Shown here piece by piece: positions 24,701 to 58,235 of a stretch of 64,000 bases of DNA. A program made the position numbers and the translations under genes. Positions within the stretch are counted from its first letter, which is position 1; every line of letters begins with the position of its first letter. Below the pieces are notes generated by a model. The model was not told the DNA's origin. It did no database searches and saw nothing but the letters and a program-made list of their open reading frames with translations. The stretch is from Amphiscolops sp. MND2022 (Eukaryota). The stretch is taken from the NCBI GenBank assembly GCA_964187785.1, contig OZ076409.1, forward strand, positions 16,988,001 to 17,052,000, written 5' to 3'.

Positions 24701-27700
24701 GAGCCGCCGCCAAGACTAGTCATTTTGCTTACCATTTTACTATTTACTTACCATTTTACTAATTAAGATATGGAGCATATGGTTGAATATAATTGTGTTA
24801 CACAACATAGATACAATCAAGGAAGCTTCCAACGGCCGCCCAAATGAATAATTCACACGAATCGCTGCATTTTGTAAAGCATTTGTTGTTATCATTTCCA
24901 GCCTTGTCTTATGCCCCCAGAAGTTCATGTTCAACCAGCAAGATAATCCGCAACTAACATGAAGGGTTTGAATTACGTAATATATTCCTTAACAAATTCG
25001 CCCTTCGCTATTTCGTTGCTCGATCAGATCCGTCAATTAGCAAAATAATCATCAGTCATTTCATTTGAAGCTTAGAAAATCTATAATCTGAGAAGGAATC
25101 ACACGTCATTCGAATGATAATCAAAGATGACGTTATCCGCTCAGATTGTCACAAAATTAATGAAAAATTGGGTCACCCCATTTTACCAAGTCAACGTTCG
25201 CTAGCCAAAAACTGTAAGCTCTAGAGAATTCCTACTGTTTGTGGGACAAAAAAGCCATGTAAATTTTGGAAGTGAACAGGCGCGTCTAGAGCTCCCGCTG
25301 AAAAAAAGTAACTTACATTTGTTAGCACAGCGAGAACTGCAATTGCTCCCAAAATGTTGAACCAGGTGCCTGAAATAAAGACAAAGATTGATTAGCAATT
25401 CGTATACTAAAAACTTCAAAAAGTGCAATGCTATGTTGAGACAATTTTATGCTACTTTTCGACTTCTAGATTCTTATTTTTCCAGGCATCGGAATTCCAA
25501 TTTTATGAGGCAGATCACGATTGCCTTTTTTGAACGTTATTCATTAAGAATACTTTTTGACCTTATTTCTTTGGGCGCCATTTACTTGAAAATAATTTAG
25601 TTCCGCGCAGGATTCTAATGATTGCGAGGCTTCCTTGATTGCGAAGTTCGCATCTTAACCACTAGGCCGAACGGCGTGAGCAAAATCTGTTCAATAAGTG
25701 TGGACCATTCAGTGTGAGGTCTGTGGTCTGAGGAAAAACTTGCCACAGTAAGTCGGGCACTTTTTATTACAGAAAGCGCCGACAAAAAATATCCGCTTCA
25801 GTAAAGAGGCCTCACTACACTCTAGTCGGACTATTCCTTTATTGGAAGCAACAATTTGGCAACAGCCAAAATATGAACCACGGCTACTCTTGGGATGAAT
25901 ACGGTTAATCAAGCCAACTACTCAAGTTTCATGAGCATGACAATTATGTAACATTCCTCGAAAAGTCTACCAGTTGATCTTGAGATGCGCCTTATGGGTT
26001 CTTTGACTTTTTGATGTTGAAAAGTTGTTGAAAACTGCCATTTATATTTTTGCCCTAATCCACAAGACGTTACGGTGACTTGACCAGAAATATGTTGAAG
26101 CCACCAGATGTTAATGATGGTCGTGGTCAAGTGATTAGAGAAATGTTCAATATATAGGCGAAGCAAGCAATTAAACAACGTGTGAAACTCGAATATCAAA
26201 GTTACCATAATGGACAGTTCCACGTCCGTGACTTCATCGAAATGCCAAGTACATGACAATTATGAAAGAGTGCAGATACTGTATATCTACTGACCAATAT
26301 CCTCGGCCTTTTGCGCCCAGGGTCGTCTGAGCTGGGTGACGAACTTGTATGCGTCCAGTTTGATCTCCACCATGTTGTTGAGGAATGCGAAGAAGGGTGC
26401 GAGGGGGAAGGCGGCCACGAACAGGGTGGTGAAGCCGAACTGGATCACCATTTCCAGGTACTCGTAGAACAGGTTCAGAGGCGGCTGTGCGTTCAGACAG
26501 TAATCTTTCTCCCATCTGGCCAGCTTCAAGTCTTCTTCCTGCAGAAAAAACGAGAAGCCTGTTTAGAATTGAATTATCAAGAATCGAAAAGCGAAGCTGA
26601 ATTATATAGGATCAAATGAGTTATTTAGAGTCGAATTTTGATGAATCGAAAACGATCGTAATTTTTCTAGAGAATATGAATCTAGTAATTATACAGTAAT
26701 TAAACGTCTTGTAAATAAGGTTGGAGAAATGCAGGTGTGAAATTAGTTTGCTTTGTCATCAGTTTTGTCCATTTAACCCCAAATAGTAGAGGTGCACCGG
26801 ACAGGAAATTTTCCGTCCGGCCGGATAACCGGACAGGACATTGAAGCCGGATTCAGGCCGGACTTGACATTATCCTCAATTGTAAGCGATGAAGGGCTGT
26901 TTTCAGAATTGGGCAATGAGGATTACGAAAAACGAACCAGGCCTTTACCACAGAGCGGTGAAAAACTATTTTCCCTCCGACATAATTTAATGAATTTTGA
27001 TTCAGTCACAAATTCAAGTTTTCGATGCACATACATATTTTCTAAGTTAGATATTCCGATTAGTTAAGATTATTCTTTTAAGATAATATCCGGCCGGACA
27101 TGGTAAAAAGTCCGGCTGGATACCGGACAGGACATTTTCCTGAAATCCGGCCGGATACCGGACCGGACTTGTTGTCCGGTACACCTCTACTAAATAGCAT
27201 TGTGGTACGTTTTTGCACCACTTAAGATCTGCAAACTTCTAAAGGTAATGGTAAAGAAAACTCTAGAATAAGATTTTCGGACAATATTACATAGCATTGC
27301 ACGCATTTTCACGGATTGTTGACTTGATGTCTCCAAAATCAAGAGAACGGGACCAAAAAAAATTTTAAAAAAATGAGCGCAAAATTTCCGTTTTTCGTTT
27401 TCTTGTGTGGCCAGTTTATACCACTGAGGACCAGATTGGGTCAAAGTGGCCCTAGCATCTTGCTGAAACACACCGTGCTAAGTTTTGGCGCAAAATGCGG
27501 AGCCAGTGCGGCAAAGCAAGGGACCTCCAACCCAGCAGTTTAAAAATCAAAATGAAAGCCCTGATTGTCTTCTTTCGAACGCGCTAAAAATAATTTGTCG
27601 GACTTGAATAGTTTTGGAGATATTGCGGTTCGAAGTTTAAACACCAGATTTTTGGATGGATCCCGAAAATTCATCCTCAATTCCGGGTTAAACTACAAAT

Positions 27701-30700
27701 CATCGATCATTACACAGAGTAGCCATATCCAAATCCGCTTGTTGAGATGTATTGTATTTCATCATTGAAGGTGACAATAAAGGAACTTCCTTCTACATTC
27801 ACAACACGTTTGTTCAACTGCCATCCCATTAAAGTAGATTAAGACGCCCACAAAACGGATATTTTTAGGTGAAGACATTTTCAACCTCAATCGAAATTAT
27901 CTTTATTGCAAGTCCTCACGAAATGGTCTCGAGTTGGAACAATCAACGGACAACTGGGCGAACCTTCTCTTGCTGGTCTTCTTCGATAACTTGGCCCTCG
28001 ATTGTTTCTTGTTCGCTCTTCTTCAGCTTCCGTTTCGCCATCCATTTGCGCAATGCACTGAAATCAGCAATTGTCTCAAGCGAATAATCAAAGGAGCACT
28101 ATTTCTATGAAAACGTTTGATTTTGTTCAGCTCTGATTTGTAAAGGAAGTGGTTCAACAGAGCATTCTGACAGAATATAAATTATTTCACCCTTGTTTTG
28201 CTAATCATTTTTTGAAATAAAATCATCATTGCTTCTCTCATAAGATCCGAAACCAACTTCAACTTGTTCATGTCTTCTTAATCAAAAACACCTGAATTTC
28301 GTTAACAATTAGTAGAATAACAATGGTTAGCATTCAGGAAGTTGCATAAAGTTGAGAGACCTGATAATGGTAAAAGATCTTGGAGGAACTAGCAATTCAA
28401 TTTATTTTTCAATTCTACAAGTTAGTCCTCAGGCATAAGGCTTATTCACTCAATTGTTCTGGTTCACTACAATTCACTGAGGTATAATTGGTTCATGGTT
28501 AACGAAGGTTAATACAGCACTTTGATTGACCTATTACCAGGAATATTTGGTGAACCAGAGCCGCATGTGCGGTAACGGAGTCGGAAACGGATTAAAATGT
28601 AGTAGGGGAAGGGGGGTTCAGATTCAATAAAGGATCCCAAAATTCTAAGATAGAATTCTTAGACTCAATCATGGATCCCAAAATTCTAAGATAGAATTCT
28701 TAGACTCAATCATGGATCCCTAATCTTAATACATGCATTCAAATTCTGAGCGTGGTAAGACAATTTGAATTTCCAACTAGCAAGGTTATGTTTGATATCT
28801 TGACAGTTTTGACCATCTTTGACAATTGTTCAAACTAGATAATGAAACCATCTTTCCGTACAAAGTCATCAAGCTGTATAAACGAGAATTTTAACTCTGT
28901 TATTCAATTATTGAAATGAACCATCGTTGATAGAAACAAAACCAATGTGAAAGGCCAACTGCTGAATGTTTTCTGACAAATTTTAAACATTTTAAAAACA
29001 ATCTGAAGGTAATTTCGAGAATCATCAAATTCCTCCGCGCTTTTTCCAATAACCAATAAGTTGAAAAATGGTTTTCTTTTTTGGTCGTTTTTCTGCAAGT
29101 GAAAAAATCAAAGCGTAAAGATTTGATGATTCTCAAAAAGATGCATCGCTGTGACGACTGCCAAAAAATTTTTGCTTCTAAAAAGTCACTCTATCAGCAT
29201 ATTCGATAAAAGCATGGAAAAGAACCAACATTGTCCCAATCAAAATTTCGATGTGGTCACTGTGAGACCGAATTTGTTTCAACGAGGAATTTACTTCGCC
29301 ATTTGAGAAATCAACATAACCTTGCTGGCAATTTTAAATGCAATTGTTGTTCAACCATTTTTGGAGCTCAAGTGCCCCTCAATGAACATTTGCGCACTTT
29401 CCATTCCATTCAATCAAATAGTCAAGTTACGAAGCGATTGAACTTTAGTGAAAGTGTTTCAGCTTCTGCCATCAAAACTGCAATAAAGTCTTCCTTTACG
29501 GTGTATCGTTTGGATCTTGAAAAGAACGACGTGGAACCTTTCCACTATTTGATATCCAACACAAAACATTACTTTCATAAACGCAAAGTTACCGGATGAT
29601 GGAAGCTCTCGCATCGGCCTAACTATCCATGTGCAACTCTGTAAGCCTCTGGAGGGTGAAAGAGTAGTCGTTTATTTTCACACCAGAATGGAACGATTCG
29701 GGCATGAAGTTATTGAAGACGATTACAATCATTTCGTGGACCAATTGATTTCTCAATTGAACATTTACTGTACTGCGGGTTCTGGATGGGTTGTTGAATC
29801 ACTTTTAGCTGTGGAAATCAAAGTCGCTGCCCCCATTAGGGAGACGGGATCTTCCTATATTGAGACTCCCGCCTCTCTCAGTGGCCTACGAAGAAGCATA
29901 TTGAATGTGAAGAACAAACGGGACGAGTTTTGCTTTCTGTATTCTGTATTGGCGGCCTTGTATCCTCAAAAGAAGAATGTTGACCGACCATCATCTTATG
30001 TAGATAAATTCGATGAACTACATTTCCAGAAAAGTGACTTTCCAATGTGTTTGAGCAAAATACGCTTCTTCGAAAAACGCAATGATCTGTCGATTACCGT
30101 GTATCGATTTGAAAACGAGACTTTGCAAAATATTTATCACTCAAAAAACCGAACCAGTCGTCGAAAAATTAAATTGTTATTGTTGGAGGGCCAGAAAAGT
30201 CACTACTGCCTAATCAAAAACTTTTCGAACTTGATGCACCAACTGCATCGATCTTCAAAAAGCGATGTAAAGGTCCGAAGAGTAAATTTTGTGGCAATTG
30301 CTTTCAACCCATCATCCGATCCAATTACAGAAAACATATTGAGTTTTGCGAGGATCACAAACCACTGGAAATTACAATGCCTCAATGCGATACGACATTG
30401 TCGTTCAACAATTGGCAAAAAACACAATGGTGTCCTTTTGTTGTCCATGCAGACTTGGAAGCTATCGATGTCCCGAGTGTCAACGGTTCTCAACAAACGC
30501 GAATGACTTCACACACAACTGAAATTGAAAAACAATATCCGGCAAGTTTCGGTGCTGTGCTTTTCGATCAACGAAGTTCTAGCATAGCAAAGAGCTCCTT
30601 TTATAAAGGATTGTATTGAGCGTTCGATGGATACGTTGAGAAGTTGGTTGTCTTGGACCTACCTTCAGAAGCAAAAACATCGCCAATTGAAATTGTCACA

Positions 30701-33700
30701 ATCGGAGCGAGAGCAGTTGATGTCTGCGCCTGAAATCGAGTGTTGTATCTGTGGCGCCAATGTGGATCATGGTCTCAGAGTCGTGCATCATTGCCACCTC
30801 ACGGGTTTCGTTTTCGGGGTGGCTCATTCTGAATGTATTTTGAAAGCGCGATCTGTCAACTTCTTGCCTGTCTTTTTTCATAACCTCTCTCGCTATGATT
30901 CACATCATATCATCAAAAATTTGTTGGTGAAGGAGCATGAAAAATTGTCTGCTATTTCAAGAACCGACGAAGTTTTTATTTCGTTTTCGATTACAGTTCC
31001 TGTGGGCTCCTACACTACAAAGAAAGGTAAAGTTGTTGAAGTTTCCAACGCTCTGAGATTTCTCGATAGCTTTCAGTTCATGGCTCAAGGTCTCGATGCT
31101 TTAGCGAAAACATTAAAGAATGAAGACTTTCTGCTTTTGAAAGATCACTTCACTCAAACCAATCCCGAGGTAGACTGGACGCTGCTTACTGAAAAAGGAT
31201 TTTTTCCTTACAGCTATTTAGATTCTTTTGGAAAGTTTAATGAACCCTTGCCACCCTTTGGAAACTGTTGGAAAAATTCATTGACTGGAAAGGTCGATAT
31301 AACTGAAGCTCAATACGCACAGGCACTCCATATTTATAACCTTTTTCAATGCCAATGTCTTGGCGACTGTCATGACATCTATCTGAAAATAGACGTTTTC
31401 ATCCTAGCCGATGTGTTTCAACTGTTTAGGAAAGTTTGTATGAAAGTGTATTCCCTGGATCCAGCGCATTTTTTCGGCACCAAATCTGAGCTGGGAGGCA
31501 ATGCTCATAACAACGCGAGCAACACTGGGACTTTTGTCAGATGTGGACATGCTACTTTTTTTCGAGAGAGGCATTCGTGGAGGGATAAATGGGATTGGCG
31601 AATTGCGTCATTTTGAAGCCAACAACTCTTATATGGACTCGTTTGACGACACAAAGCCTTCGGTCTTTGGCGCCTTCTTTGATGTGACGTCTTTGTATGC
31701 TGGAACAATGCAGTAAATGCTCCCACTCGATCAATATGCATGGAATGACGCGATAACACTCTCACAAATTCTTCAGACTGACGATGATTCTCCAGTGGGA
31801 TACTTTGTGGAGGTTGATTTGGAATATCCATCCTCATTGCATGATGAACACAATGATCTTCCTTTGGCACCTGAAAAGCTCACGATCAAACAGTCTTGGC
31901 TTTCATCATTTGCGCAAAGTTTTGGTATTAAAGTTTCTTCAGATGGTCCTAACAAGCTGATTGAAACACTCTTCGACAAGAACAATTATGTATGCCACTA
32001 TCGTAATTTAAAATTTTACATCAAACATGGTCTGAAAGTTAAACGGCTGCATCGCGTGATCCAGTTCAGACAGAGCAAATGGCTGGGAGACTATATATCA
32101 AAAAACACTGTGATGAGAAAGCAAGCAGTCAACGACTTTGAGAAAAACTTTTACAAACTAATGAGCAATGCTTGCTTCGGCAAAACAATGGAGAATTTAC
32201 GTAACCGCAGAGAGATTAGCTTCGTTCCGAGCAAAGAACAGGCTGAGAAAGCGTTTCAAAAGCCAACCTTCAAGGGGTTTCAAATCATTCACGACAGTTT
32301 GGTGTCTGTAACTATGACTCCATCCAAAATACTCTGGAACAAACCAACTCCTGTGGGTGCGTCTATTCTTGATCTCTCGAAACTTTGTCTGTACAAATTT
32401 CATTACGAAGAAATGAAACCTCGTTATCACAAAAACTTGAAGGTTTGTTACAAAGATACAGACTCTCTTCTTTACCGTATAGAAACGAAAGATTTATATA
32501 CTGAGATGGTCTCATTCAAACACTTGCTCGATTTATCCGATTATCCAGAGACACACTTCCTCCATGATAAATCAAACAAAAAAGTCCCACTGACAATGAC
32601 CGACGAGCTGCAAGGCAAGGTGTTGACTGAAATTGTTTGCTTACGATCAAAACTGTACAGTATTCAATTCCAAGGCGGCGTCAAGCAGAGCGCCAAGGGC
32701 GTTCAAAAGAGTGTGAAAAAGACTCTCCACCACGATTTGTTCAAGTCCTGCTTGTTCGATAAACAGCCTGTTCGTAAGTCAATGACACAATTGAAGTCCG
32801 AAAATCATCAAATTGTTGTCAACCGGGTCAATAAAATAGCCGTCAGTTCCTATGATGACAAACGCTACCTACTTGAAGATGGAGTACGGTCTCTAGCTTA
32901 TGGGCATTATTCACTGAGGAAGTTTGATGAAAATGGTTAGTTCTTTTCAGATCGCCTCCTACTTTTAAAATGTTTCTTGTTTAAGCTGTTCATATTTGTT
33001 ACAGGGCCATCTTGATGGTCAGTTTATGAATCTGATGGTGAGCAAAGTGTCTCGTCTCGGTCGTCTTCAAATGAATCTTCCTCCACCTTGTCTACCGAAT
33101 CTGACGATGACAATGAGCCTGTCACTGCTGTATATCCTGTTCTACACTCTCTCTTGGAATCAGCTGATTCTTTCAGTAAAATTTTCACTTGTCGATTTTA
33201 TTTTCAAACGAAAAAAAATTTGGCAACAAGAAAAGTTTTGTTCTTTAGGTCCACCGGATCCTGGTTTTCATCAGTCGCCGCAAAGGGAGCAATTATCGTC
33301 TTTGGACTGGGATGACTATGACGAAATGTTGGCAGCACAAGAGAAATGTGATGCCAAACCATCAGCTTGTCCCTTTCTTGACTACGAGGCCATCGAAGCC
33401 AGTGGTAGTGATAGTGAAGACAATGAGAATATTGTAACTGTCAAGAGCAAACGCGATCGATCGAAACGCCTAGTGTCTTATAGTGACAGCGACAACACGA
33501 ATGATGTTTAAAGAATTGTACAAAAAACTTGGTGTTGGGGTTATTTCGTATATTATCAGAGTAATAATAATAATATGGCTATAATATTCTAGTATAAAGT
33601 GTATTTGAAATTTTTTTACAATGTGAATTGAAGTATCTAACTAAATCAATTTCCGAAAGCATTTTCATAGTACTAATTTTGGGGAGAATTTTCTTCATCA

Positions 33701-36700
33701 ACGTTTCATGTGACAAGCTCAAAAGTGAAGTGCTATCGAGGATTTGACAAAAATTGTGGGCCATTAGAAGGCAATATAATCCACACAGGTTTGAACTAGG
33801 ATTCTGCAGAGGAAAAAAGATAACGTCGACATTGGCAACTTTTTTTGAGAGCTGGCTCAAGCGTTTGTGAATCCAAATGTGGCGCGACAGCTCTATTCCC
33901 AATGGGTCCCAAACCCAAATATTGACAAAGTATTTCATCCATGTTTTCAAACAAAGCCTTCGCGCCGGAGCTTTTCTTGTTTTGCGATGGCCAAATTCCT
34001 TTCCAACAGCAACGAGGCAAACTAGTAACCAATGTTGGCCAATTTGGTCCGACTTCGAAGTATTCACAATTTGATAGAAAAAATTAATAGCTCCTGATTG
34101 TTGAAAGCTTTTTTCGAGATCTTTCTCAACGAGAAAGTTGTCGGCGGAAGCGACGCCCAAGTTTTTGTTGAATAGCAAACGGCAGCAACCTTGTGTGAGT
34201 TGAATCAACGTTTCATTGTCCATTGGTCAATACCCAGAGTTTTTCAAAATGTTTCTGCTCGCGTCGATAGTAACCTGACTGTAGCGTTCGCCAATGAGAA
34301 ATAATTCTACTGCTTCTGGGAGGGCTGTTGCAAAGGTCAGTTTCATTGTCAATCCAGCCCCAGTCAGCTCCGGAAACAAGGTCAAGCTTTTACTTGCCCC
34401 TCTTGTGGAAGTTAGGTCGAACACGAGAAAGAAGTGATTGTCTTCGTATTCATCCAACGTGATTCCGTTACCGCTCCGCTCAAACCCTAGAGCTGTTATC
34501 ACATTGTAATACAGTCTTGAATTGTTGGTAGTGTCTAGCGGCGTGCCCGCTATGGGCAAGCCATTCCCACGCTGCAGTTCTACTTTTTGCAAGCTGAACT
34601 TTTCGTAACGGAATGGCGTGGAAGCTAAAGTAGTTCCTCTAAAGAAGCGATTTCGAACCATACACAGAGTCAGTCTACGAATAGGTTCTGTGCCGAAAAT
34701 GTTTTCCTTGACAAAGCAGTTTTGACCAGCTTGAACAATGAAACTTTTTGTCAAATTTTCAATATACGGATAGACCGCTCGACTTTTGGATAATGCTCGC
34801 TCAATGCTGACCTTCACGGCATCAGACAAGACAATTTTATTGACAAACAATGAAGCTTTCTCTATGGTCACAGTTGGGGCATTTTGTTCCAAATCTTTCA
34901 CATCCGCTGCATTCAGAGCTGTGAGGGTTTCCATTGCGCAAAGGTTAGATGATCGGTAGAAGCGCAAATGCAGCGTTACGCCGGGCAAAAGTAGACGCTC
35001 ACATACGAGAAAGTCAATATGAGGCGCTCCATACAATTGTACGGAACATTTTCCCTCGCTGGTGTTTTTGGCTACAATCTTAGCTTTAATTTCATCATTC
35101 ATGTTCTTGTCTCCGCGGTATTGGTAGCCCTGACATCGCGCCCATGTGGCTTTGCTAGTAGTGTCGGTTGATAATTCAGTTTCCACAAAAGCCGAGTGAT
35201 GATAGTTGTTGTTGCTGCTCGAAATCAATTTTTCATTTAGAAACAACTCAACGTGAGAAAATAAGGAGTGAAGAGTATTGTTGGCAAAGATGATGTTTTC
35301 TGAATCATTGAGGCGATCTGTTCCGTTTGGTTTGTACAGGGTCACTTCAAGTGAGAGACATATTCTGTTCAAGTCGATGCAATTTTTGCTATCGGCAGTC
35401 ACGAAAAAATCCAACTGGGGCCCGCGACAGCCAACGTGTGGGAATACTTCTTGATCAAACGAACCTTCGTAATTGATGAGCACTGACGGTTTCTCAAAAA
35501 AGTCCAATGCACTGTGCGTTACAGGATTGGCAATTTCAGAACATGCTCCACTAAACGTTATTGGCGCGGACGCTTGTGATGATGTGGATGACATTGATAA
35601 TTTCTAGGCTTCAGTGAATGCAACACTAGACAAAATGTCGGAGCGACTTCTCTTGGCAACGTTTTTGTTCAAAATGGCAATATTGTTGCTTTTCTTTCTT
35701 TTTCTACTCGACTGCACCGGATTTGTGCTGCCCCCGCGGCTGCCTGCCCGCCCGGTCGCGCGTCGATCAGCCGCCGTCGCCGCTGTCGTCCGCGCGTGAA
35801 GTGGGTGGGGTGGATCGAACAGCAGATGTTTTGACAGTTTTTTCGACTGACTTTTTCAATGATTCTTTCAACGCTTTCCGGGGCGGCTTTTTTTCCTGCG
35901 ACAATTTTGGGAATTTCGGGTACAAATGCCGAAACTAGATTTCGGCCAAATTCTGCCACAGGCACAAAATACTTTTTCACTAATGGCACAGCGACGCGGC
36001 CCATCCTCATTGCAAAGGCTCCTAGTCCCCCCGAGCCGTATTGGCGTGCGGGTCCTCGGAATGTAGTTGCGCTTGAAGACACTTTTGAAAGAATCTGGCT
36101 ATCATAATGCTGATCCATTGGGTTTTGTAACTTTTGTTGAATTTGAAGCAACCGTTCCCGTGGATCTGTAGTCTACAAATGATTTCTGAATGAGAATGGA
36201 GCAACACAGAGAAAGCAAACTTTAGCTGCATCGTTTGAATTGTAAAGTCACATTTGTGCGTCCGCGACTGAGGAATGGAATCAAGTCACCAGTCTCACTT
36301 CTTAGCGATATGGTGATTGATTGAATGGAACAATTGATGAGGCGTCGCCATTGAAGCTTGGAAAATGTTCGCTGATTGTTGCTTGTGGTTGTAGTTGAAA
36401 GAGGTATGGCGCGCAACAGAGCTGATCGCGTGTCGCCCAAAATTTCATTGTGGACCAAATCACAGTAGAGAAACATTGTATGGCATCCAGCCGTCAAGTC
36501 AACCGGATACTTTTCCATTCGGGCGTCGTGACTTTGCTCTTTACTAAAATCCATTCTGGACTTCTCATCAATTTTTCCATTTTCGTCAACATCATGATGA
36601 TTGTTGGCTTTCTCCTGCCCTGCACAATCAATGAGACTTTGCGACCCCAAAATGTTTTGCAAATCTTTTGACACAAGTCTTACTTTGAATGCATCCTCCG

Positions 36701-39700
36701 AGGAACCTGTGAAATTCACATTCAAAATTTGAGAAATTGGACAAATGATCCATTCCACGGTAAAGTTGCGTGGTCAGCTTCGCTAAAAATTTGGCGAAAG
36801 ATCGTGTCCAGCAAGCAATCAATCGTTGGATAGCACCCACATGGTATGGAATGTGGTTTTTCCTTTTCTAACTTGTTTTCTTGCAGAATCGAGTGCGTAC
36901 GTTTGCGAGGATCAGACATCGTCACAAGTCCTGGTGTGTAACCTCTATATGGATGTCGTTTTCTCGAGCTCGCTTCAGTGGTAAGTGTCTCGACTTTTTG
37001 AACGGTAAATTTGCCCTCCGTCACATTTTTGATCAAATTGGGCCACGAAATCTCCACAACGGCAACCTCCCATGTCCCTTGTAGTTGCATTTCTTCAGGG
37101 AGTAATGTAGTGAAGTGTGCCAGAGAATTTTCTGGGAAAGTTGTCATCGATGCGTTGGAAACTAAATTATTGGTAAAGGTATTCCGAGACGACGACTGCA
37201 TTCTGCCGGTGCTGTTTTGAATTTGATTTGGTCCGGTCAAACAATTTCGGCTTTAAAACGAACAAGCTCGCTCTCATAAAATTTGCCTTCAATCAACTGC
37301 TCATTAGCGTCTTTGAGCAAGTACGTGGGAGGATTCAATGTTTTGACCGCCACAATTTCAAAGATTTCTTCGGTGAATTGGATGCGGTAGCCACGATGAA
37401 ACAGGTCAAGTTTTCTCCTGATTCGAACGTGTTGTCCAATTTTAAATCTTGGTTTTTGCACGGCATTGGAATTTTGCAGGGAAACAAGAAAAGCTTCGTC
37501 TGACTTTTGCACTTGCTTGGGGGCCATTTTAGTAATTCGGTTAACTCGAGAATTTATCACGTTAACAAAACTCTGCAACTTGTCTATGTAGACGTCAGTT
37601 CTGTTTTCATGGAGATACTTGAAAATGATAGATTTTAGCGAGCGAATATTTCGCTCAGCAAATGCTGACTTTGTTTCACTGTTTGTTGAGTACAAATCAA
37701 TGGCTGCGTTCTGGGAGAATGATGCAAATTCTCCAGCAAATTCTCGGCCCTTGTCCACCCAAATTTTTTCCGGCTTCCCGGGCACTGCAGTGGTACCTCT
37801 GGTAGCACGACAAAAAAGTGGCTGCATATTGGGTGATTCGTTTCTGATGTCAGAAATTATCTCCTTCAATACATTCCTACATGAATCGGCAGTTTTTCGT
37901 TTTATCGGTCGGACCCAAAGAAATCGACTGAGTGTATCCACCGCGACGAAAAGAAAATTGACGCCATTGTTTGGTCGAGCAAGCTGCTGCATATCAGCCA
38001 AGTCGACCGACCAAATCTCATTGAGTCTGAACGTTTGAACCTTGAGACGAAGAAATTTTTTCTTACTTTGTTTGAACTTTGAGTAAGTCTCATTCTTATG
38101 AAGGTAATTATCTACTTGTTCATAACTGCAGTTTGAGTACTTTTTGAGAGACGCACGGCTTCCAAACGATGCCGGACTCTGACATGAAGTGTATAGAGTG
38201 TGTAACTTGCTGTAAGCAATTGAATCCGCATTCGCTGGTACCAGTCGTCTAGTTTTTGAACATTTCGAACACATAAAATTCCCTGAAGATTTCGGATAGT
38301 CGGCTGCACTGCTCAGACCGCTGCATTTGAAGTGAACACAGCCACAAACGTTGCACCAGATTGATGGCTTTTGACGTGTTCCTTTCCCCAACGAATGCGC
38401 ACAGCTGCCGCAAAAACAATCTTGTTTTTTGGTTCTCCTTGTTTGTGTTCTTCTCTTGCATTGTTCCATAAGGATGGACGCTTTAGTAAAGACGCAGCCA
38501 CTTGGCTTGATTGCTGAACGATTCAGATTGGTCTTGCGAATCGTCTTCGTTTAAAATTGTTCTTTTGATTTCAGCAGCTGCTTTTTTAGCATTCGGGTTC
38601 GCTAAAAGGTACTCTGGCAATTGCAAGCGGCGAACTAAGTCAAGCGTAGGCTCGTTTAAATTTTTCGTTGTTGTCTGCAGATAGTAGAGGAAATCAAAAA
38701 CAGACACCCCTGTGTCGCGGTCGTGTAACAAAATTCTTCCCGAACTTTTATCAATTGAAACGTTCTCAGTATCGTTAATCTTGCGAAGTATTTGTCGAGA
38801 GCGTTCAACTTTTCCACCACTGAGTCCTACAGATAAAAGTTCAATAATGACGTTCTCAGATTTGGACGACTGTGATGCTGCCTCTGTCTTTTTGAAATCA
38901 GATAGGGTTGTTGCGGGTTGCGATCTTTTTTGAATCGGGAATGCAAATTCCATTGTGCACATTCTGATGCTGAGGGAAACTGCAAGCTAACTTTTCCCTT
39001 GTTTTCGAGCTCTGATACTGATGTATTTTCGTTTTCCTTCAAGTCAGTTGTTGCTGCCCGCTCCGCGCTTTCTGATTTGCGAAGTGACGATAACGCTGAA
39101 TACTCTACAGCTGTGATTAGAATGAAGTCTTTTGCCCTACTGTTTAATACCATGTCGCTTTTTCAAATGATTAGAAACGGATGGTTGTATTATTCTCAAC
39201 AGCCGGAGACCATTGGTAGTTGAGAGAGAATGCCGTTTTCGCCGTATTCCAACTTTTTTGTTGTTGAGAAGATCAATTAGTTTCCTATGCGGATTTAACT
39301 GTTTCCTCGAAGCTGGTGCAATCATCTGGATATTACCGCTGAGAATATTGAAAATGCAATCGCAAAAAAATTTTGTCAATAGAACAATGTGAAATATACA
39401 GTCGTTTTACAATTGGCTCCATTTCGCTGAAAAAAACATACAAATAAAGCTCTTGTTGACTCATTGTTCAACTGTTCCGAAGTGTGATTCGAAGTTATAT
39501 AAAAGATCGAAGGCTCATTGCCCGAGCATTTGGAAGCGTATTTAAGTTTAGGGTCTGTATGAGGATCGAAGTCAATCAACAAATGACCAAACGCTTCACG
39601 AGTTGCTCTTTTATAGGCGTCCAGTAACAATTGTCTGTCTCCCATTTGACGTCCCAGAACAGCTATTTGCTCCAAATCTCGCGGGCTCTTGAAAAGAATA

Positions 39701-42700
39701 ATTTGAGTGACGTTTAGCTCTATTGTTTTCGAGTGCTTCGATTGTTGAAAGAGATTGTGCTTCAGAGTAATCAAATGGATATTTCGATGTCTCCCTGCAA
39801 TTACCAAATTCAAAAAATATTCGTCTTCGCATGCTTGTTGGTAGAGGTCATCAATCACCAAAAGAGTTCGCAAGCTCTGCGCTTCACACTTTTCGACTGC
39901 ATTCCAGTCGAGGCCCTGATGGAATTCGATTTGTACTTTAGATTGAACACATTTCAATTGCAGTTCTTCGAAGTTCGGTTGGAAATGATTGTACAGGTAG
40001 AGAATTTTGTCAAAAGAAGGTCTGAAAACTTTATATACTTTATATTGGTTCACTAGCATACTTGAGACCAACTGAGTTTTTCCACTTCCACATGGTCCGA
40101 CAACTGACAGGAAGCAGTGAGGATCCGTTCGAATACGCTTGTTCATTTGTCAGACTTCGGAATCAAATATCCAATGCAGGTAGATAGAACAGCTATTATT
40201 CCAGTTTTATGCAAACTGTTCTCGGCCAATACTAGATAAAGAAATGAGCAAATGATCACCATGAATAATAGAAAATATGTAGTTGAAATCACAAGAAAAG
40301 ATCTGCTGCAGTTAATTTCATCAGTGCAACATCCACAATTTAGTTTAAAAGGCGGCCTTTCTTCATTATTGTAATCTAATATCAAGTTGTTGATGTTAAC
40401 ATGATCAACACAGTCCCCAACACAGGCCACTATAGTTGATTCGTCGGATGTTTCCGATGTTTTGCTAGCATTGTCGTTCATATCGCTGGGTGGTTCTTTA
40501 ACACATGTAGGTGGTACAAAATTTGAATCAATTTGTGCAACTGTAAAAGATCATTGAAATTTAGGTGAATGCTCGAAGTTTTTGTGCTATTGAGTGCCAG
40601 AACCTGTTCAATGACAACTTGAGGACCTCTTGACGAAATTACAGCGCGTATATTAGTTGGGTGATAGAGGAACGTTAACTGAAATGTGGATGGATTTTTG
40701 TGCGACTGACATTGGTGGAGGTTGCGAGAGAAAGTGATTAAAACTTCAAACGGTTATATTCTTTCCGGTGTAACAGTTTTTGATAAAACCAAAACGCCAA
40801 TCCCGTAATGTTACCAATAAACATGTTGTTGGCAAAGATTGGTTTTTCACTCAGAGTATATACGTAGCCTGGTCCTACGCCGAAGTTACTCCTCATGAAG
40901 CCAAAAGCATCGTGAAATATTGCATGTAGCCGAAATATTTTAAAGTGTTTCAGCCACTTATCCATCAGACTATCTCCGGGTCCTATGAGACCACCGAAAG
41001 GTGCCAAATCGTTTATATCATGAAGGTTGACTTCTTTGTTTAATCACCAACAGACAGCTAGAAATGCATTTTTACGTTGAGAGTTTTCAGGGAACAAGTA
41101 GTTTGTAAGCTGGAAGTTATTTTCCAATAGTTCAATATCAATGAATTTCATCATACGATAGTCAACTTGCTTGTTTTTTGAAAACCAACTGCTTTTTAGA
41201 TTAAATTCACAATAAATGAATTAGACAATCAAAGTGTGCATTCTCATCAACGAAAGAGAAAAGATTACATTCATTGTGTTCGTTACCGGTCAAACTGGCT
41301 CCACAAAAGCTAGTTGAATTGTCCTGGCATTCAAAACAGACATTGTGCGTCAGAAAATCCCAAGTCTACTGACAAAACATTATTGTGATGAGACGCCTTG
41401 GTAGTCCCGAATCCTCTCATGAGAAGCTCAATAAAATCGAGAACACTGTCTTTAAAAACTGCTGGAGACTTCTCGAGCTCGGCTAATCGCTTGCTAAGAA
41501 AGGAAAGTTTTTCAATGTCTTCACTTTCATCGAATTCTGTGTAACAGCTGCGCTGAAGCTCCCATGACATTTCATAACTGCATCCCAAATCAGTTGTTGG
41601 TTTCATTTTCAAAATTGATTTCATCTTTTCCCCATGAATGAACAAACGGTTTCCACCAAGTTGTGCTTCAGTTTGAAGACAATTTTCCGGGTATGAAACT
41701 GAATAATTTGACGAGACTGTCTTTGATTTTTGTTCCTTTTTGTGAATTCAGGAAGTTGTTACTTATGGTGTCTTTGATGAATTTCTCTGCGCCCACGAAT
41801 GATTTGATGTAGAACAGAACGTGATAGTGTTCTCCAAGAACGTTTGAACACTCATCTTCCGCTTCACTCTTGTTGGTCGTGTTGTGACATCTGATACTGT
41901 ATTCACAAAAAGTGTTGTTGAGTAGGCTCTTCACCAAGCGACGGAGGCTCTCCGGTAGTTTTGGTTGAAGTATTTCATTTGCATATTTGATTATTTTGCA
42001 GGGAGGTGGATCATGAAGTTCCCGACCTGAAGTCTCTTCTTTAGAGAAATACACCAAATAATAAAAACGTGAAGGAACTTCTCTAAATATACTGGTCATG
42101 GCGAAGTCTAACTAGAGAATGATTTCTGTGACGAAAAGTAATCTTATCAACTTTTCAGGTTATGCAATTCCATTTTTCCATAGTTATGGTTTTTCTCAAG
42201 TCGATTTTCCATTCGCACAGTCCGAGCGTGCATTCCGTTTTGGAATGTGCATGAAATTTTGAGTATGCATTGGTTGTTCGGACTGTGCGGTTATGCCATA
42301 AATGGTATCTCAAATTGGTTACTTGTGTTAGAAGTTTTTGTTAAAATTTCTAACACAAGGATGAGTTTCTAATTTCTTTGCTGTTTTGAGGGATATCTTA
42401 CCGCTTACAGTTATTTGGAGGTTGAGCATGAAGAAAAGAAGGTTAGTTAAAATTCATTTTCTAAAATTTTTGTCAAAAGGTTTAATTTCTGTATCAGTGC
42501 ATATTTATTTAGCTGTCAATGTTTGTTGTTTAAGCAAAGTTCATGTCGATCTCGAACTTTGGCCTTATAGCATGTTTTAAGATTAGGGATCCATGATTGA
42601 GTCTAAGAATTCTATCTTAGAATTTTGAGATCCATGATTGAGTCTAAGAATTCTATCTTAGAATTTTGGGATCCTTCATTGAGTCTAAACCCCCCTTCCC

Positions 42701-45700
42701 TTACTACTAACCAACTTCAACTTGTTCATGTTTTCTTAATCAAAAACACCTGAATTTCGTTGACAATTAGTAGAATAACAATGGTTAGCATTCAGGAAGT
42801 TGCATAAAGTTGAGAGACCTGATAATGGTAAAAGATCTTGGAGGAACTAGCAATTCAATTTATTTTTCAATTCTACAAGTTAGTCCTCAGGCATAAGGCT
42901 TATTCACTCAATTGTTCTGGTTCACTACAATTCACTGAGGTATAATTGGTTCATGGTTAACGAAGGTTAATACAGCACTTTGATTGACCTATTACCAGGA
43001 ATATTTGGTGAACCAGAGCCGCATGTGCGGTAACGGAGTCGGAAATGGATTAAAATGATGGAAAACAACGTACTTTATTGTCATTTGGTCATTTTTGGAC
43101 TACTTTTGGCTATGTTTCTCAGAACCCAGTCATACCTTTGGGTTTAAAATGACTGAGCTAAATTTTATAGATGTATGGACAGGTTTTAAGAAATTTGAAA
43201 CTTTGATTGAAAGGTACGGAGAAAAAAGGTACGAGTGCATAAGTAGTTGAAAACTTTTTCCAACTCCCAGAAAATCAACTATGAATTTTGATCCTACTTT
43301 AAACAATTTACTTTTCAACTTCTGGGAACCACGACATTGACATGAGTGAAACTTACGGGAGTCCAGCTTCCTGAAGGTTGCTATACGCTTGTTTTCCTAC
43401 CATGATGATAGCCAGTTGTGTCATGAGATCAAACAGACAACCTCCGGGTCCACACTGAAACAGAAAAGCCACCGGTCGCAGAAAATAACACATTTACACT
43501 GAGGGTCGTCAGTGACAATCGATATGACGGTATGATCAGAGTACAAGTGTTACGTAACATTGATCTGTATTACGCAACATTGACAAGTGTGACGTAGTAT
43601 TGTCTGGAAATTTTGACTTTTCACTCAAAATTTTAATGCGGTGAAACAGTAAGGACAAATATGGTATGTAACTCTGCTTCGGCTTATTAAACGGTTCATA
43701 GACCATCAGCTATCCTTTTTTGTTGTTTTCATTATTGAATTACAACGAAAAATTGGTTTCAAAAAACTTTGCAACTAGGTGTTGACAAGTGACAACGAGG
43801 AGAGTGGCGGAGGAATTCGAAAATAAACATTTAGTTATACCTCTTAACTATTATTTAGTTGTTATCCGGAGTCAAGTACTGATGAAGGCTGCTGAGAATG
43901 GCCTATAATACAGATGAGCATATCTTTCACTCACCTTATACTGACTCTGGAAATTTCGAAGAAATCAAGGGAAATTATCATTTCAACACTTGAAGCACTC
44001 ATTTCAGATTCAAACTGCACGGATTTTGATAGACTGAGCTTCAATGAAACATGAACAATCGGAAAAAACTAAACGCTGGCTCACTAAATAAATTTTACAT
44101 TGAAACGACATGAAAGTTGAATTATCAGTTTCCGCCCATAAATTCATAAGGAAAAGGAAGTTGTGTTGCTTATTTAAAGGTGTTTCATCCATGAGCTGAC
44201 TTACAAGACACCTTTTGATAGCTTCCTCTCTCTGTCACCTTTAAATGTACCTTTACCAGCATTAAAAATTTCCGTCTAGCGCTGGATTCGAACTCACGTA
44301 CACGTAGAGAAACTCGCGTTAACCTCCAGGCCAATTGGAGAGCACTTTCTAGCTTTCCACCAGCACTTCTAAATTCTACTGGCAGAACCCGGGGAGAGAA
44401 TATTCAAAAAAATCCCCGGCCAAAACTAATCCAAAAAGGCCTCGTCAAAAAACAACAACAGCTTAGAGTACATTTCGAAATAAGTGCCTTTTAAACGCAT
44501 TCATTTCGGCTAACCTCTTGCAACCTGTATTTGTCGAAGAGCAGGTTGTATCTCGTAGGATATCCACCAAAGCGTCCCTTGAAGAATGCAATGTAGACGA
44601 TTGATGAGTAGTAGTTGACGAATTGGAACACAAACATCTTCAGGGTGTACGAATTGTCGAACTCAGTTTCTGTGCGGGGACATTCGAATTCGGTGAGTTT
44701 GAACGCGAGCACATTGTACATACGAGAGAAGGTGAAAATGAAGAGGAGATTGACAAAGGCTGCAGTACTTGAAGTCAGTATGCTAGCCAACGTTGGCTGT
44801 ACATTTTGGTGGACAAAAAAGTAGGCTGCTAGAGCTCGGTAGATGATCACAGCGATCACCGCTCCCAGGACTACTGTTATCTGAACACAGAAAAGACATC
44901 AGAAGATGGAATCCAACTGACTCAAAAGAACCAACGATTGAAACACATGAATGAATACTTACCATGAACATTACAATAGAAAGAGTCGCACAGATTTTCG
45001 GAATCTTCACTGTCAGAGGCATGAATGGTTCAGCCATCTAAAACAAAAAATTGCTAATTTTTAAAATAAAACATGGAAAATTCAGGGACCCTGCATGGAA
45101 CGATTTTGTAAAACTTCCAAGCAGTTTACAGAATTTCTGAAAAACGAACTTATTAATACCAAGAAGATTCGCTAAATGAGCATCGAGTAACACAGTAACT
45201 AACAATCCGATCGGCACTCGAAAAGGCGCCTGTTAAAACAGTATCGAAATATAGTAACCATGTACAAAGAGGGGCATTCATTGCGAGGTCTGTGGTTAAG
45301 ATAAAAAATATCTTATGTAAGGCACTCTTACAGCTGAACAATCTAATGTCTCAAATGTTATTTTAATGATTTCATGTTGAAGCTTCATGTTAAATCTCAA
45401 AATTATGAAATTATGATTTAGGTTAAGAAAAATTGCTGGGGATTCCAAGACTGAAAATGGAAAATCCCACCAAAAAACAATAACTTGACTTAAAATGGAA
45501 TCAGAAGAAAGGGAAAAACTTACAAGTGTGACCGGATTAGTTTGCCACCACGAGTTTTTCTTCTTTTCGTTCTTCAACACGGCCAGTCTAGCCTTGCGCT
45601 CAAACTGTGGCCGAATGACCTGCGTACCCTGTTCGTAGTCGAACAAATCCCACTCATAGCTCAGTTCGTTCTTTCGTCTCTTCCAGAACTCCAGGAACAT

Positions 45701-49149: not shown

Positions 49150-50110
49150 CGTAGCAATAAGCATTTTCTGCAACCCAATATAGAATATTTCTTTTCCACT
49201 TGGGTCCGATTTTGTTTCGGACTTTGACCAATAATTTTATATTTGTCGGGAAGGGGAAATTAATCAACACTGCTTTGAATTTTTGCCTTTTTGCTATCGG
49301 TATCAGACTGCTGTCATGATCAGCAGTGTCCTTCTCTGACATCGAGATGGCCAAAATACTTTTATAATGTTTCAACGATTCTTTCCTCGCTTGTTATGAT
49401 GAGCGTTTACAACGGTTCAACGTGCATGCGATCCGGCATTTTCCATTCCAAGTGGAACAGTTTGGTACCCTATGGACTCTGTCCATGTTTTCTTTCGAAA
49501 ATGCAGATCACAACCTCCAGTACTGTCAAACACGGAAAACTTATTGTGGAACGCTTTATACGTCTCAAGCAATTACTGAGTCAAAAAGTAGATAACGATA
49601 ACCTCAAATGCTTCAAACACTCCTTCCTAAACTGTAAATCAGATGTCGATGGAACAATGTATACAACTGTCTCCGATGAAGTTATAGACTTCGTTCTCGA
49701 AAATTTAGAATGCGGATCTGTTGAAAGCTGGATGGGACGCCTCAAACACAAGTGTGGAATATTACTCTCGAGAGAGTTAGTAACTTTCGAGACAACCGAG
49801 TAAGTTATTTTCGGCTGTCCAAGAAGTCCACTTGTTTTTTATTATTCCACAAAAATCACAATTGTATGGTGAAGCACAGGCTTTTTTGTTTCCAAAACTA
49901 TCATCTATGCTGTTATGAAAGTCTATCCTGTTGTTAAGGTTGTGAACCTTTTCGGTTCAAAAACTCAATGCTGGACGAGGTGAATGATAAACTTATTGTT
50001 GCTGTCTCCCTTGAAAGATACGAACTTCTGACAATCGAGGCCTCTTTCATCGTTTGTCGTTGTTATGAGTCATTGAAATCTCATGATAGTGTAGTATTGT
50101 CCAAAATAGT
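49150..50110 (+). pseudogene. CACTA/EnSpm-like transposase, C-terminal remnant
   Basis: FLFHLGPIL; LFAIGIRLL...DIEMAKILL; FNVHAIRHFPFQVEQFGTLWTLSMFSFEN (N.H...H....V...G.LW..S.F.FE motif). Multiple stops and frameshifts. Confidence 0.7.
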
Positions 50111-50744
50111 TGAAGGTTTTGATCACGACTGGCTCCGAAATCAAAATAGCTTTTTTTCTGCTCAGTCAGTGCGGAACAGTCTGTCTGAGTTGATAGCATA
50201 TGCGGAACAACTATGCTGGTTTTGTCACCTCATCGAAATTAATTTCGTTTTTTTTTTGCTTTCCACTGTTTCAGTTATTCCTTATCGATCATTAATCCTT
50301 GTATTTGAACTTTCAATACTAATCATTTTTCATCTAATCTTGGTATTGCTTAAGTGCTCAATCAGTGCGGAACAGTCTGATTGTGAAATAGGATTGTGCG
50401 GAACAGCCAATCTTTCAATAGAACTGGTTTTGTTCATCTGAGTATTGAATGCAACCTAATGAAATTACATAACCGTTTATTCGCTATTTGCTGTAATTTT
50501 TTGCTTTTCACTGTTTCAATTATTCCTTATCGATCATTAATCCATATATTTGAACATTTAATACTAATCATTTTTCATCTAGTCTTGGTATTGCTTAAGT
50601 GCTCAATCAGTGCGGAACAGTCTGACTGTGAAAAAGGATTGCGCGGAACATCCAATCTTTTAATAGAAGTGGTTTTATTATTCTGAGCATTGAATGCAAG
50701 CTAATGCAATTACATGACCTTTTTTCCGCTATTTTCTGTTAGTA

Positions 50745-51983
50745 ATGTCTTTTGCTGCCAAAGTGACAAAGGTCAAAAAGACCACTGCCAGGAGTAAGAC
50801 GGTAGAGGAGAATGCGCAACTTAGAGAAGCGGTAAAAGGTGTGAAATTCTTGGCTTTCTGGATTAATGAGAAAAAAATATAACTGTATTAGCGTCGACGA
50901 CCCCCGGTGGCCACGCTCATGCTCGATTGCGGAAAAATTGTCTCCACCCAAATCGGGCAAAATTTTCAATGGAGAGCCATCGGGAGAAAACATCTCTTTG
51001 GTCCGCAGTGAAGCAGACATGCCAGCTAAAAAGGCAGTGATTGACAGTTTTATCAATAGCAACCGGCGTTTGAAGACATTTGTAGCTTGAATGTCACTCG
51101 AGAGGTTGAAGCGCGGGAAAAAGCAAAACCAACTCGACAACTTCAAGCTTATGAGTCGGGTGACTCTGCGTCTTCACATAAGTCTTCCGTGAACTTGCAA
51201 GATATGGAAGAGGACGAAAAAGAGCTGAATCCCGAGGCTTTGAAGTATATCGGATTTCGAACTCCTGCCAAAAAGCGAAAACGTCGTTTTAGTGGTAAGG
51301 AAAATGTAGAACCAGGGTCTTCTATGGGAAGTGACATCGCGAATTCGTCCTTCGGATCTGTGGTTAGTGATAGTCTGGAGCTAAATGCAACGTTGAGAAC
51401 GTTGGGCAACGCGATTAAAGAGCTCAATGGCGAGATAAGGAACATGCGACAAACAGATAAAACTTTGGCAAAAGAGAACAAGTATCTCAGGGAGTCGGTA
51501 CTCCCACCATGAAGGCCGGCGAAATGACACCTGAGAAACAAGTCCGCTTTGACGGATTCAATGTAATGACATGGTATGGTGAAACGCCAGCAAAGTTTGG
51601 CTTGCAACTAGCTCGCAAAATATGTGGCGAGGATGCTTTGGTGACACATATGATGGAACCAACAGAAGGCGCTGGTCGCCGATCACTGGATCAATCCAAA
51701 GTTGCGATTATTAAAGGTAAGGATCCAGTGTGTTTTAATAAATTCTTGACAAAACTGTTCACTGTGTCGAATAATTCACCTCACGTTTTGACAGTTGATT
51801 TTTTTTACTTCAGAAGCACTAGTTGCACGCTTCGGGAGCACCCCTGTGGTAATCGACCAAGCTCGGAGATCAATTAATCAATGGGGAATAGACGAAAAGG
51901 AACGTAGAGAAAAAAAAGCGGAGCAAGCGGAACAAATTCGAAATCCCTCAAAGCCCAACGAGATACTCGAAACCAATGAATGA
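50745..51983 (+). pseudogene. BEN-domain protein, copy 1
   Basis: Coiled coil, then KFGLQLARKICGEDAL...RRSLDQSKVAIIK|EALVARF...INQWGID (BEN-like; intron 51717-51813). Frameshift and TGA at 51510. Confidence 0.7.
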
Positions 51984-57303: not shown

Positions 57304-58235
57304 AAGAAACTTTCCATAGGACTGGAACCTATAATCAACCATAGCTGCTATGATGTTTTATTTTAGTTTTCGAAAGGTATTCTCGGTTGTCAAGAAGTCC
57401 ACTTGTTTTTCATTCATCCACAAAAATCAAGGCTTCCATGGTGATGCGCAAGCTTTTTTCGTTTCCAGAAAAAATCGTATGTTGTTATGAAAGCCTGTCA
57501 CGTTTGACCTTATCGGTTCAAAAAGTCAATGTTGCACAGGATGAATAATAAACTTATTGTTGCTGTCTCCCTTCAAAGATACGAACTTTCGATAATCAAT
57601 GCCTCTTTTATCGTGTTTGTCGTTATGAGTCTTTAATTAGCTGTTTTCTCTGCTCAGCCAGTGCGGAACAGTCTGTCTGAGTTGATAGCATATGCGGAAC
57701 AACTATGCTGGTTCTGTCACCTCATCGAAACTAATTTCGTTATTTTTTCGCTTTTCACTGTTTCAGTTATTCCTTATCGATCATTAATCCTTGTATTTGA
57801 ACTTTTAATACTAATCATTTTTCATCTAATCTTGGTATTGCTTAAGTGCTCAATCAGTGCGGAACAGTCGGATTGTGAAATAGGATTGTGCGGAACAGCC
57901 AATCTTTTCATAGAACTGGTTTTGTTCATCTGAGTATTGAATGCAACCTTATGAAATTACAAAACCGTTTTTCGCAATTATCTGTAACTTTTTGCTTTTC
58001 ACTGTTTCAATTATTCCTTACCAATCATTATTCCATGTATTTGACCATTTAATACTAATCATTTTTCATCTAGTATTGGCATTGCTTAAGCGCTCAATCA
58101 GTGCGGAACAGTCTGATTGTGAAAAAGGCTTGTGCGGAACAGCCAATCTTTTAATAGGAGTGGTTTCAATATTCTGAGCATTGAATGCAAGCTAATGAAA
58201 TTACATGACATTTTTTCCGCTACCTTCTGTTAGTA

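What the first reader, a model, noticed from the sequence alone, without database searches (positions are those of the whole stretch)
28251..43057. 349-bp host duplication replaces the canonical 6-bp TSD and coincides with a damaged left terminus
Seen: 28251-28599 and 42709-43057 match with 3 substitutions. The right end is a perfect ...ACTACT, while the left end lacks the terminal A of AGTAGT and joins through a 1-nt overlap. The TIRs differ at 7 of 139 positions. Established: Polintons typically make 6-bp TSDs, and retroviral integrases acting on a substrate with one defective end can leave large host duplications because host repair joins the bad end. Inference: a one-ended (half-site) integration finished by host repair, or a later recombination with the empty allele.
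Basis: partly seen in the sequence, partly recalled or inferred. Interest (0 to 1): 0.7.

Follow-up and report, generated by a model that had tools for sequence, protein, structure and literature searches.

The report
Long target duplications at Polinton insertions
A 14-kb virus-like transposon (Polinton) in an animal gene's intron is flanked by two copies of about 350 host bases instead of the usual six, and four sister insertions in the same genome show similar long copies, likely because the element's integrase sometimes joins only one end and DNA repair finishes the other.

Summary
The duplication is real in the assembly: 28251-28599 and 42709-43057 differ at 3 of 349 sites, and the TIRs at 7 of 139. 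It recurs. Of 58 paired loci of three related Polinton subfamilies in this genome, 46 have a 6-bp TSD, 4 a degenerate one, 3 none, and 5 a long duplication (36, ~77, ~90, 103, 347-349 bp). The link to a damaged end fails: 4 of the 5 long-duplication copies have intact termini, and 6 of 46 six-bp loci have damaged ones (p=0.54). Long-duplication copies mostly have one exact junction and one irregular junction (1-nt overlap or filler; one filler matches sequence inside its duplication). Divergence fits an origin at insertion. Their sites match the family's target signature less well (p=0.015-0.067, n=5). Best reading (0.65): one-ended integration completed by repair synthesis, as described for HIV, ASLV and HERV-K. 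My 10 literature searches found no such report for Polintons. No reads were listed, so an artefact is unlikely but not excluded. The scan's look-ups showed no earlier Polinton case, only unchecked bacterial IS analogues.

The parts
28251..28599 (+). Left copy of the duplicated host segment (347-349 bp; the last 1-2 bases are shared with the element end)
42709..43057 (+). Right copy of the duplicated host segment; starts exactly at the intact right terminus and runs on into native host sequence
28599..42708 (.). Polinton/Maverick element, 14.1 kb, subfamily A; 1.4-1.8% from five sister copies and 4.2% from a sixth
28598..28736 (+). Left TIR (139 positions); irregular junction with a 1-nt overlap; holds a 41-bp tandem subrepeat at 28620-28720
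42570..42708 (-). Right TIR with intact terminal hexamer and exact junction; 41-bp tandem subrepeat at 42588-42688
29688..32940 (+). Protein-primed DNA polymerase B region, broken into three ORFs (29688-30506, assigned by position only; 30627-31616; 31717-32940)
   Evidence: PF03175 E=1.8e-5 and 1.7e-9 for the last two ORFs
33579..34223 (-). Likely adenovirus-type protease
   Evidence: weak: Peptidase_C5 E=0.02, below cut-off
34227..35594 (-). Likely major capsid protein
   Evidence: weak: Capsid_N E=0.039, below cut-off
37237..38469 (-). Retroviral-like (rve) integrase
   Evidence: PF00665 E=2.5e-6, below the curated cut-off
39376..40146 (-). A32-like packaging ATPase
   Evidence: PF04665 E=6.8e-8
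28552..28598 (+). First ~47 nt of a high-copy host repeat, cut off at the element in the left copy
43010..43275 (+). The same host repeat running on across the end of the right copy (native continuation)
26245..26541 (-). Anoctamin-matching stretch (exon) on the left of the insertion; element and duplication lie in an intron
   Evidence: PF04547 positions 305-403; tblastn with a paralogue
43341..46626 (-). Anoctamin-matching stretches on the right (43341-43559, 44491-44892, 45476-45778, 46162-46626). No paralogue match fell inside the 349-mer, which has stops in all three minus frames; a very small exon is not excluded

Best explanation
The 347-349-bp repeat is a host duplication bounded exactly by the element's right end, likely made at the moment of insertion when the integrase joined only that end and repair synthesis copied host DNA before attaching the other end. 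Inferred steps: (1) The integrase transferred the right end into one host strand at 42709. (2) The second strand transfer failed. (3) Either the free left end primed copying of nearby host DNA, or the broken upstream host end was extended on the intact sister after fork passage. (4) The extended end was joined to the left terminus through a 1-nt overlap, with loss of 1-2 terminal bases. Shown in the assembly: 5 of 58 paired loci have this architecture, and 4 of the 5 have intact termini. So the trigger is probably a failed second transfer, perhaps at a poorly fitting target, rather than a defective element end.
For: Recurrence: 5 of 58 paired loci (8.6%, 95% CI 2.9-19%), in two subfamilies. 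At least one junction is exact in all five, and the other is irregular in three: (a) the focal copy has a 1-nt overlap; (b) C2:53.88 Mb has a 5-nt filler that begins with the terminal triplet; (c) C2:43.59 Mb has a 7-nt filler whose junction is tiled by an 8-mer and a 10-mer from inside its own duplication (a random genomic 7-mer is found there 0.8% of the time). A fourth copy (C5:20.06 Mb) has a mismatch at base 2. Timing: the focal copy has 95 private substitutions in 14,096 columns (0.67%), which predicts 4.7 differences in 347 bp against 3 seen; pooled over 4 dated copies, 6.5 expected and 8 seen. Target signature: 31 of 38 six-bp sites have a central pyrimidine-purine step against 22% background (p=1.5e-14). 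Even the better junction of each long-duplication locus scores below concerted sites (p=0.015 with 3 flanking bases, p=0.067 for the hexamer alone). Precedent: HIV/ASLV one-ended integrations give duplications of hundreds to thousands of bp, often but not always with truncated ends, and can append several templated pieces (PMC5041404, passages and whole Discussion). HERV-K has 8 duplications over 10 bp among 451 estimated TSDs (PMC5488345, passages).
Against: No reads were seen, and the empty site is not in the assembly. n=5, and the target-signature test was designed after seeing the data and loses significance without flanks. If the integrase made the focal right junction, one might expect it to keep the signature, yet it scores below all 38 concerted sites; clean junctions are only weakly above random (p=0.02-0.09). 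The 103-bp locus is exact at both junctions and has a 200-N gap inside the element. A 1-nt overlap is expected by chance about a quarter of the time. Private substitutions overstate age if source lineages are missing. The assembly holds 98-99.9% identical duplications spanning element ends at 7 loci, so 0.86% also lies in a possible allelic range.
Confidence: 0.65

Rival explanations
1. An ordinary 6-bp insertion came first. Later a break at the left terminus was repaired by copying ~340 bp from the empty homologue and end-joining back to the element.
For: It gives the same final structure, including the overlap and the fillers. Three differences is slightly below the 4.7 expected.
Against: One junction should keep a normal concerted target hexamer. 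Both focal junctions score low, and 3 of 5 loci have their better junction below the 10th percentile of concerted sites. It needs breaks that fall within 0-2 nt of the terminus five times.
Confidence: 0.15
2. The integrase joined both ends but at uncoupled sites on opposite strands, or ends from two sister copies were used together (hybrid or alternative transposition, as for maize Ac), and replication duplicated the interval.
For: The 103-bp locus is exact at both junctions, and 4 of 5 loci have intact termini. Three paired loci have no TSD and could be reciprocal deletions. Ac precedent: PMC3744419 (abstract and outline only).
Against: It does not explain the fillers, the templated pieces or the lost terminal base at 3 of 5 loci. 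Hybrid insertion predicts the target signature at both junctions; only 2 of 10 junction hexamers have the central step.
Confidence: 0.12
3. Assembly artefact from merged haplotypes.
For: No reads were checked. Seven fetched element regions contain 200-N gaps. Near-identical duplications span element ends at 7 loci.
Against: Merging a filled and an empty allele cannot create a junction between the element end and host DNA 341 bp further on (argument from structure). It would need two insertions that close together, at five loci. The focal window has no gap. Fillers are unexplained. No third copy or haplotig of the segment was found.
Confidence: 0.06
4. Pseudo-TSD: insertion into a pre-existing tandem or dispersed repeat, or recombination between two copies lying in homologous repeats.
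For: Two loci do sit in older tandem repeats (C2:64.18 and C2:17.70 Mb). The C2:53.88 Mb segment has 21 dispersed relatives at 75-81% identity. The model is discussed in PMC5488345.
Against: Those two loci keep a 6-bp TSD and were scored as such. The focal, 103-bp and 84-bp segments were found at full length only at their two flanking places. Both copies abut the termini. The 36-mer was not searched genome-wide.
Confidence: 0.02

Closest known systems
Polinton/Maverick elements (PMC8097293, passages; bioRxiv 2023.08.22.554363, passages)
   Same: pPolB, rve integrase, A32 ATPase, TIRs, (AGT)2//(ACT)2 termini, and a 6-bp TSD at 46 of 58 paired loci
   Different: The published TSD range is 5-8 bp. 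Both surveys used the 6 flanking bases in detection, so long duplications would not be scored there (inference). Here 5 of 58 loci have 36-349 bp.
Aberrant one-ended retroviral integration, HIV-1 and ASLV (PMC5041404, passages and whole Discussion)
   Same: One exact end and one host-joined end; large host duplication; short overlap; templated additions; end sometimes truncated
   Different: There it was induced by mutated ends, inhibitors or weakened integrase in cultured cells. Here it is a natural set in a genome assembly, from a DNA-replicating element, mostly with intact ends.
HERV-K (HML-2) long TSDs (PMC5488345 and PMC4422153, passages)
   Same: Natural germline insertions with 13-450-bp flanking duplications and 0-3 mismatches
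   Different: 8 of 451 there against 5 of 58 here (Fisher p=0.01; ascertainment differs, so indicative only).
Polinton-like viruses and virophages of protists (PMC12220804, PMC8547959; passages)
   Same: rve-integrase elements with short TSDs
   Different: Reported TSDs are 1-9 bp, or 7-23 bp for tyrosine-recombinase elements; the cryptophyte study examined only 50 bp of flank. Their supplementary tables were not opened.

Membership tests
Polinton/Maverick | Protein-primed DNA polymerase B | tested here: met
   PF03175 on two ORFs; the gene is broken
Polinton/Maverick | Retroviral-like integrase | tested here: met
   PF00665 E=2.5e-6, under the curated cut-off
Polinton/Maverick | Packaging ATPase | tested here: met
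   PF04665 E=6.8e-8
Polinton/Maverick | Major capsid protein and adenovirus-type protease | tested here: inconclusive
   Capsid_N E=0.039 and Peptidase_C5 E=0.02; no PDB sequence match; only chance-level PHROG hits; no fold was predicted
Polinton/Maverick | TIRs of 100-1500 bp with (AGT)2//(ACT)2 ends; 13-25 kb | tested here: met
   139-bp TIRs, 14.1 kb; right end intact, left end off by 1-2 nt
Polinton/Maverick | 6-bp TSD | tested here: met
   Met by the family (46 of 58 paired loci) but not by this copy
One-ended (aberrant) integration product | One exact junction and one irregular junction | tested here: met
   Focal copy and 2 other copies clearly; one doubtful; one exact at both ends
One-ended (aberrant) integration product | Duplication coeval with the insertion | tested here: inconclusive
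   3 seen against 4.7 expected, P(<=3)=0.32: compatible but low power
One-ended (aberrant) integration product | Caused by a defective element end | tested here: not met
   1 of 5 against 6 of 46, p=0.54
One-ended (aberrant) integration product | Single-copy empty allele, and both junctions on one molecule | not testable with these tools
   No runs listed; no relatives held for this genome

The most novel reading that the evidence does not exclude
Polinton integrases are loosely coupled: about one insertion in ten is one-ended even with intact termini, because the target lacks the bendable central step, and the element's own strand-displacing polymerase rather than host repair copies the tens to hundreds of bases. 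Long duplications would then be a regular, overlooked second integration route of Polintons, hidden by the 6-bp filter of published surveys.
Probability: 0.15. Interest if true: 0.75.

Novelty: new variant of a known kind. Interest (0 to 1): 0.5.

Why it matters
Polinton integration is inferred almost entirely from the 6-bp TSD. This genome gives two further footprints: a strong central pyrimidine-purine target preference (31 of 38 sites) and a roughly 9% class of long duplications with repair-type junctions. Together they argue for retrovirus-like strand transfer with imperfect coupling of the two ends, and they make that testable in any long-read animal genome. In practice, 6-bp filters would drop such copies. 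The long repeats would also allow clean loss of the element by recombination, which would mimic an empty allele (as PMC5488345 discusses for HERV-K).

Tried and rejected
Sequencing runs: none was listed for the flank, so no read test was possible. Damaged end as cause: rejected. TIR divergence as a clock: rejected, because two of the seven differences are family-wide. The cluster of three substitutions in the left TIR looked like error-prone repair (P about 1e-3), but the same variants occur at other termini, so they may be inherited; not used as evidence. Apparent long flank matches at C2:64.18 and C2:17.70 Mb are older host tandem repeats with a 6-bp TSD. Flanks of 21 unpaired or unexplained ends were compared with the adjacent inner sequence, up to ~18 kb: none gave a scorable duplication at a damaged far end, and two recurred as 93-95% repeats (C9:45.54 and C10:1.25 Mb) and were left unscored. 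End polarity: the irregular junction is at the polymerase end in 3 of 4 orientable copies and at the other end in 1, so no rule. Three unplaced-contig flanks gave no haplotig match among fetched loci. The Atlas did not answer. The primary RSV paper PMC1317513 was not held. bioRxiv 2025.02.07.637071 passages held nothing relevant. PMC2857682 passages were background on retroviral fidelity.
Full report
OBSERVATION. The two segments 28251-28599 and 42709-43057 match at 346 of 349 positions and do not extend further; the window has no N. The three differences are transitions, one at a CpG where the host repeat family carries the left copy's base. In the genome search (40 of 752 candidates scored) only these two places match at full length; the other 38 match only the 3' end, mostly the last ~47 nt, which start a high-copy host repeat. 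That repeat continues about 260 bp past the right copy and stops at the element after the left copy. The empty site therefore read upstream - segment - right flank, and the left junction is the new one. The TIRs differ at 7 of 139 positions. The left boundary is ambiguous by 1-2 bases (347 bp plus a substituted first base, or 348-349 bp with a 1-nt overlap).

WHAT THE ELEMENT IS. 28599-42708 encodes a broken pPolB, an rve integrase and an A32 ATPase, with weak hits for a capsid and an adenovirus-type protease. Its ends are the (AGT)2//(ACT)2 motif described for Mavericks (PMC8097293, passages). It lies in an intron of a minus-strand anoctamin gene. Five full-length sisters are 1.4-1.8% away and a sixth 4.2%.

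FAMILY SURVEY. Termini were collected by DNA and pattern searches. The terminal 17-mer matched 102 places, of which 100 were listed. Facing ends within 45 kb were paired. I counted each locus once where a terminus was tandemly repeated. I dropped one cross-subfamily pairing (C1:32.33 Mb) and one inverted duplicate end (C6:46.08 Mb), and left about 18 ends unpaired. Four damaged ends were placed by eye (C2:80.85, C5:68.48, C3:58.07, C8:9.76 Mb). Of 58 paired loci in three subfamilies, 46 have a 6-bp TSD with at most one mismatch (chance 0.7%), 4 have two mismatches (chance 5%), 3 have none and 5 have a long direct duplication. The five are: the focal copy (347-349 bp); C5:20.06 Mb (36 bp, 2 mismatches); C5:40.80 Mb (103 bp, 1 mismatch; 200-N gap inside the element, no polymerase match); C2:43.59 Mb (~77 bp plus 7-nt filler); and C2:53.88 Mb (~90 bp plus 5-nt filler). 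That is 8.6% (95% CI 2.9-19%). The search favours copies with at least one near-intact end.

THE DAMAGED END IS NOT THE TRIGGER. The four other long-duplication copies have intact termini at both ends. Six of 46 six-bp loci have a damaged terminal hexamer, one lacking at least three bases; Fisher p=0.54. Damage at those loci may postdate insertion, so the stronger point is the four intact cases. The three left-TIR substitutions cluster more than chance (P about 1e-3), but the same variants are present at other termini, so I do not read them as repair errors.

JUNCTIONS. Every long-duplication locus has at least one exact junction. The other junction is a 1-nt overlap (focal), a filler beginning with the terminal triplet (C2:53.88 Mb), or a filler whose junction is tiled by an 8-mer from position 44 and a 10-mer from position 21 of its own duplication (C2:43.59 Mb). 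A random genomic 7-mer occurs in that segment 0.8% of the time; six of the ten bases of the second piece are shared with the true start, so it adds less. This looks like priming from the element's 3' end with template switches (inference). One locus has a mismatch at base 2, and one is exact at both ends.

TIMING. The focal copy has 95 private substitutions in 14,096 columns (0.67%), which predicts 4.7 differences between copies born at insertion; 3 are seen (P<=3 = 0.32). Over four dated loci 6.5 are expected and 8 seen. This is compatible with an origin at insertion but has low power. It also overlaps the 0.1-2% divergence of junction-spanning duplications at 7 loci, which may be allelic artefacts.

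TARGET SIGNATURE. Among 38 six-bp sites used (38 of the 46), 31 have a central pyrimidine-purine step against 22% background (p=1.5e-14). That retroviral intasomes prefer such a step is recalled, not checked. Only 2 of 10 long-duplication junction hexamers have it. Taking the better junction per locus, scores are below leave-one-out scores of concerted sites (p=0.015 with three flanking bases, p=0.067 without). This argues modestly against a normal insertion extended later, and suggests that poor targets favour one-ended transfer. It is post hoc with n=5, and it also means that the focal exact junction carries no positive integrase signature.

MECHANISM. Best reading (0.65): the integrase joined the right end; the second transfer failed; repair synthesis copied 347-349 host bases and attached the left end through a 1-nt overlap, trimming 1-2 bases. 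PMC5041404 (passages and whole Discussion) describes this for HIV and ASLV: the free 3' end primes on nearby DNA, may be trimmed, may gain several templated pieces, and yields duplications of hundreds of bp or deletions. Whether host polymerases or the element's pPolB did the copying is not shown. Rivals: later repair from an empty homologue (0.15), uncoupled or hybrid two-ended transfer (0.12; fits the 103-bp locus best), assembly artefact (0.06), pseudo-TSD (0.02). A merge of filled and empty haplotypes cannot create the left junction, but no reads were listed.

COMPARISON AND NOVELTY. Natural long TSDs are known for HERV-K: 8 over 10 bp among 451 (PMC5488345 and PMC4422153, passages). For Polintons the passages read give 5-8 bp, and detection relied on six flanking bases or 50-bp flanks. 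Ten full-text searches showed no report of long Polinton duplications. The library lacks most subscription papers, I read passages only, and no supplements were opened; the TSD tables of PMC12220804 and PMC8547959 may bear on this. The scan's earlier notes hold bacterial IS analogues, unchecked by me, and three unrelated Polinton notes from this genome.

VERDICT. A real feature of the assembly and part of a recurrent class. It is a known kind of event in a family where my searches did not find it described. The damaged-end link is not supported. Interest 0.5.

Noticed in passing
38 paired loci genome-wide: Polinton 6-bp target sites have a strong palindromic preference: central pyrimidine-purine step at 31 of 38, and near absence of C three bases before the TSD (1 of 76 symmetrised sites).
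   Followed up: partly
L082 (G000:C4:13954284-13954612) and L217 (G000:C3:89302087-89302262, repeated 2.3 kb away): Miniature derivatives of 329 bp and 176 bp with both termini and their own 6-bp TSD; could be non-autonomous MITE-like Polintons or internal deletions.
   Followed up: no
C12:37.49 Mb (x3), C6:62.21 and 62.23 Mb, C10:41.47 Mb, C11:20.46 Mb, C5:68.50 Mb; inverted at C6:46.07/46.08 Mb: Duplications of 0.4-3.3 kb at 98-99.9% identity that span an element terminus together with its flank; either rearrangements at element ends or false duplications in the assembly.
   Followed up: partly
G000:C8:2561415-2574709 (L191-L193): A 13.3-kb subfamily-B copy with two intact termini and no TSD or flank duplication; candidate deletion-type product of the same process.
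   Followed up: partly
window 28629/42677 and 28730/42576; six sister copies: Left and right TIRs carry left/right differences shared by most sister copies, so the TIRs are not homogenised at each replication and cannot date insertions as LTRs do.
   Followed up: partly
window 49800-64000: Array of ~2.4-2.7-kb units at 91-94% identity containing ~244-bp subrepeats; satellite-like or tandem mobile element.
   Followed up: no
window 43010-43275; L003-L010: High-copy host repeat (752 candidates) with a sharply defined, conserved 5' ~47 nt; family not identified.
   Followed up: no
G000:C3:58066114-58076512 (L206-L207): One terminus is short by one triplet yet has a 6-bp TSD; could reflect slippage at protein-primed initiation (recalled mechanism, untested).
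   Followed up: no
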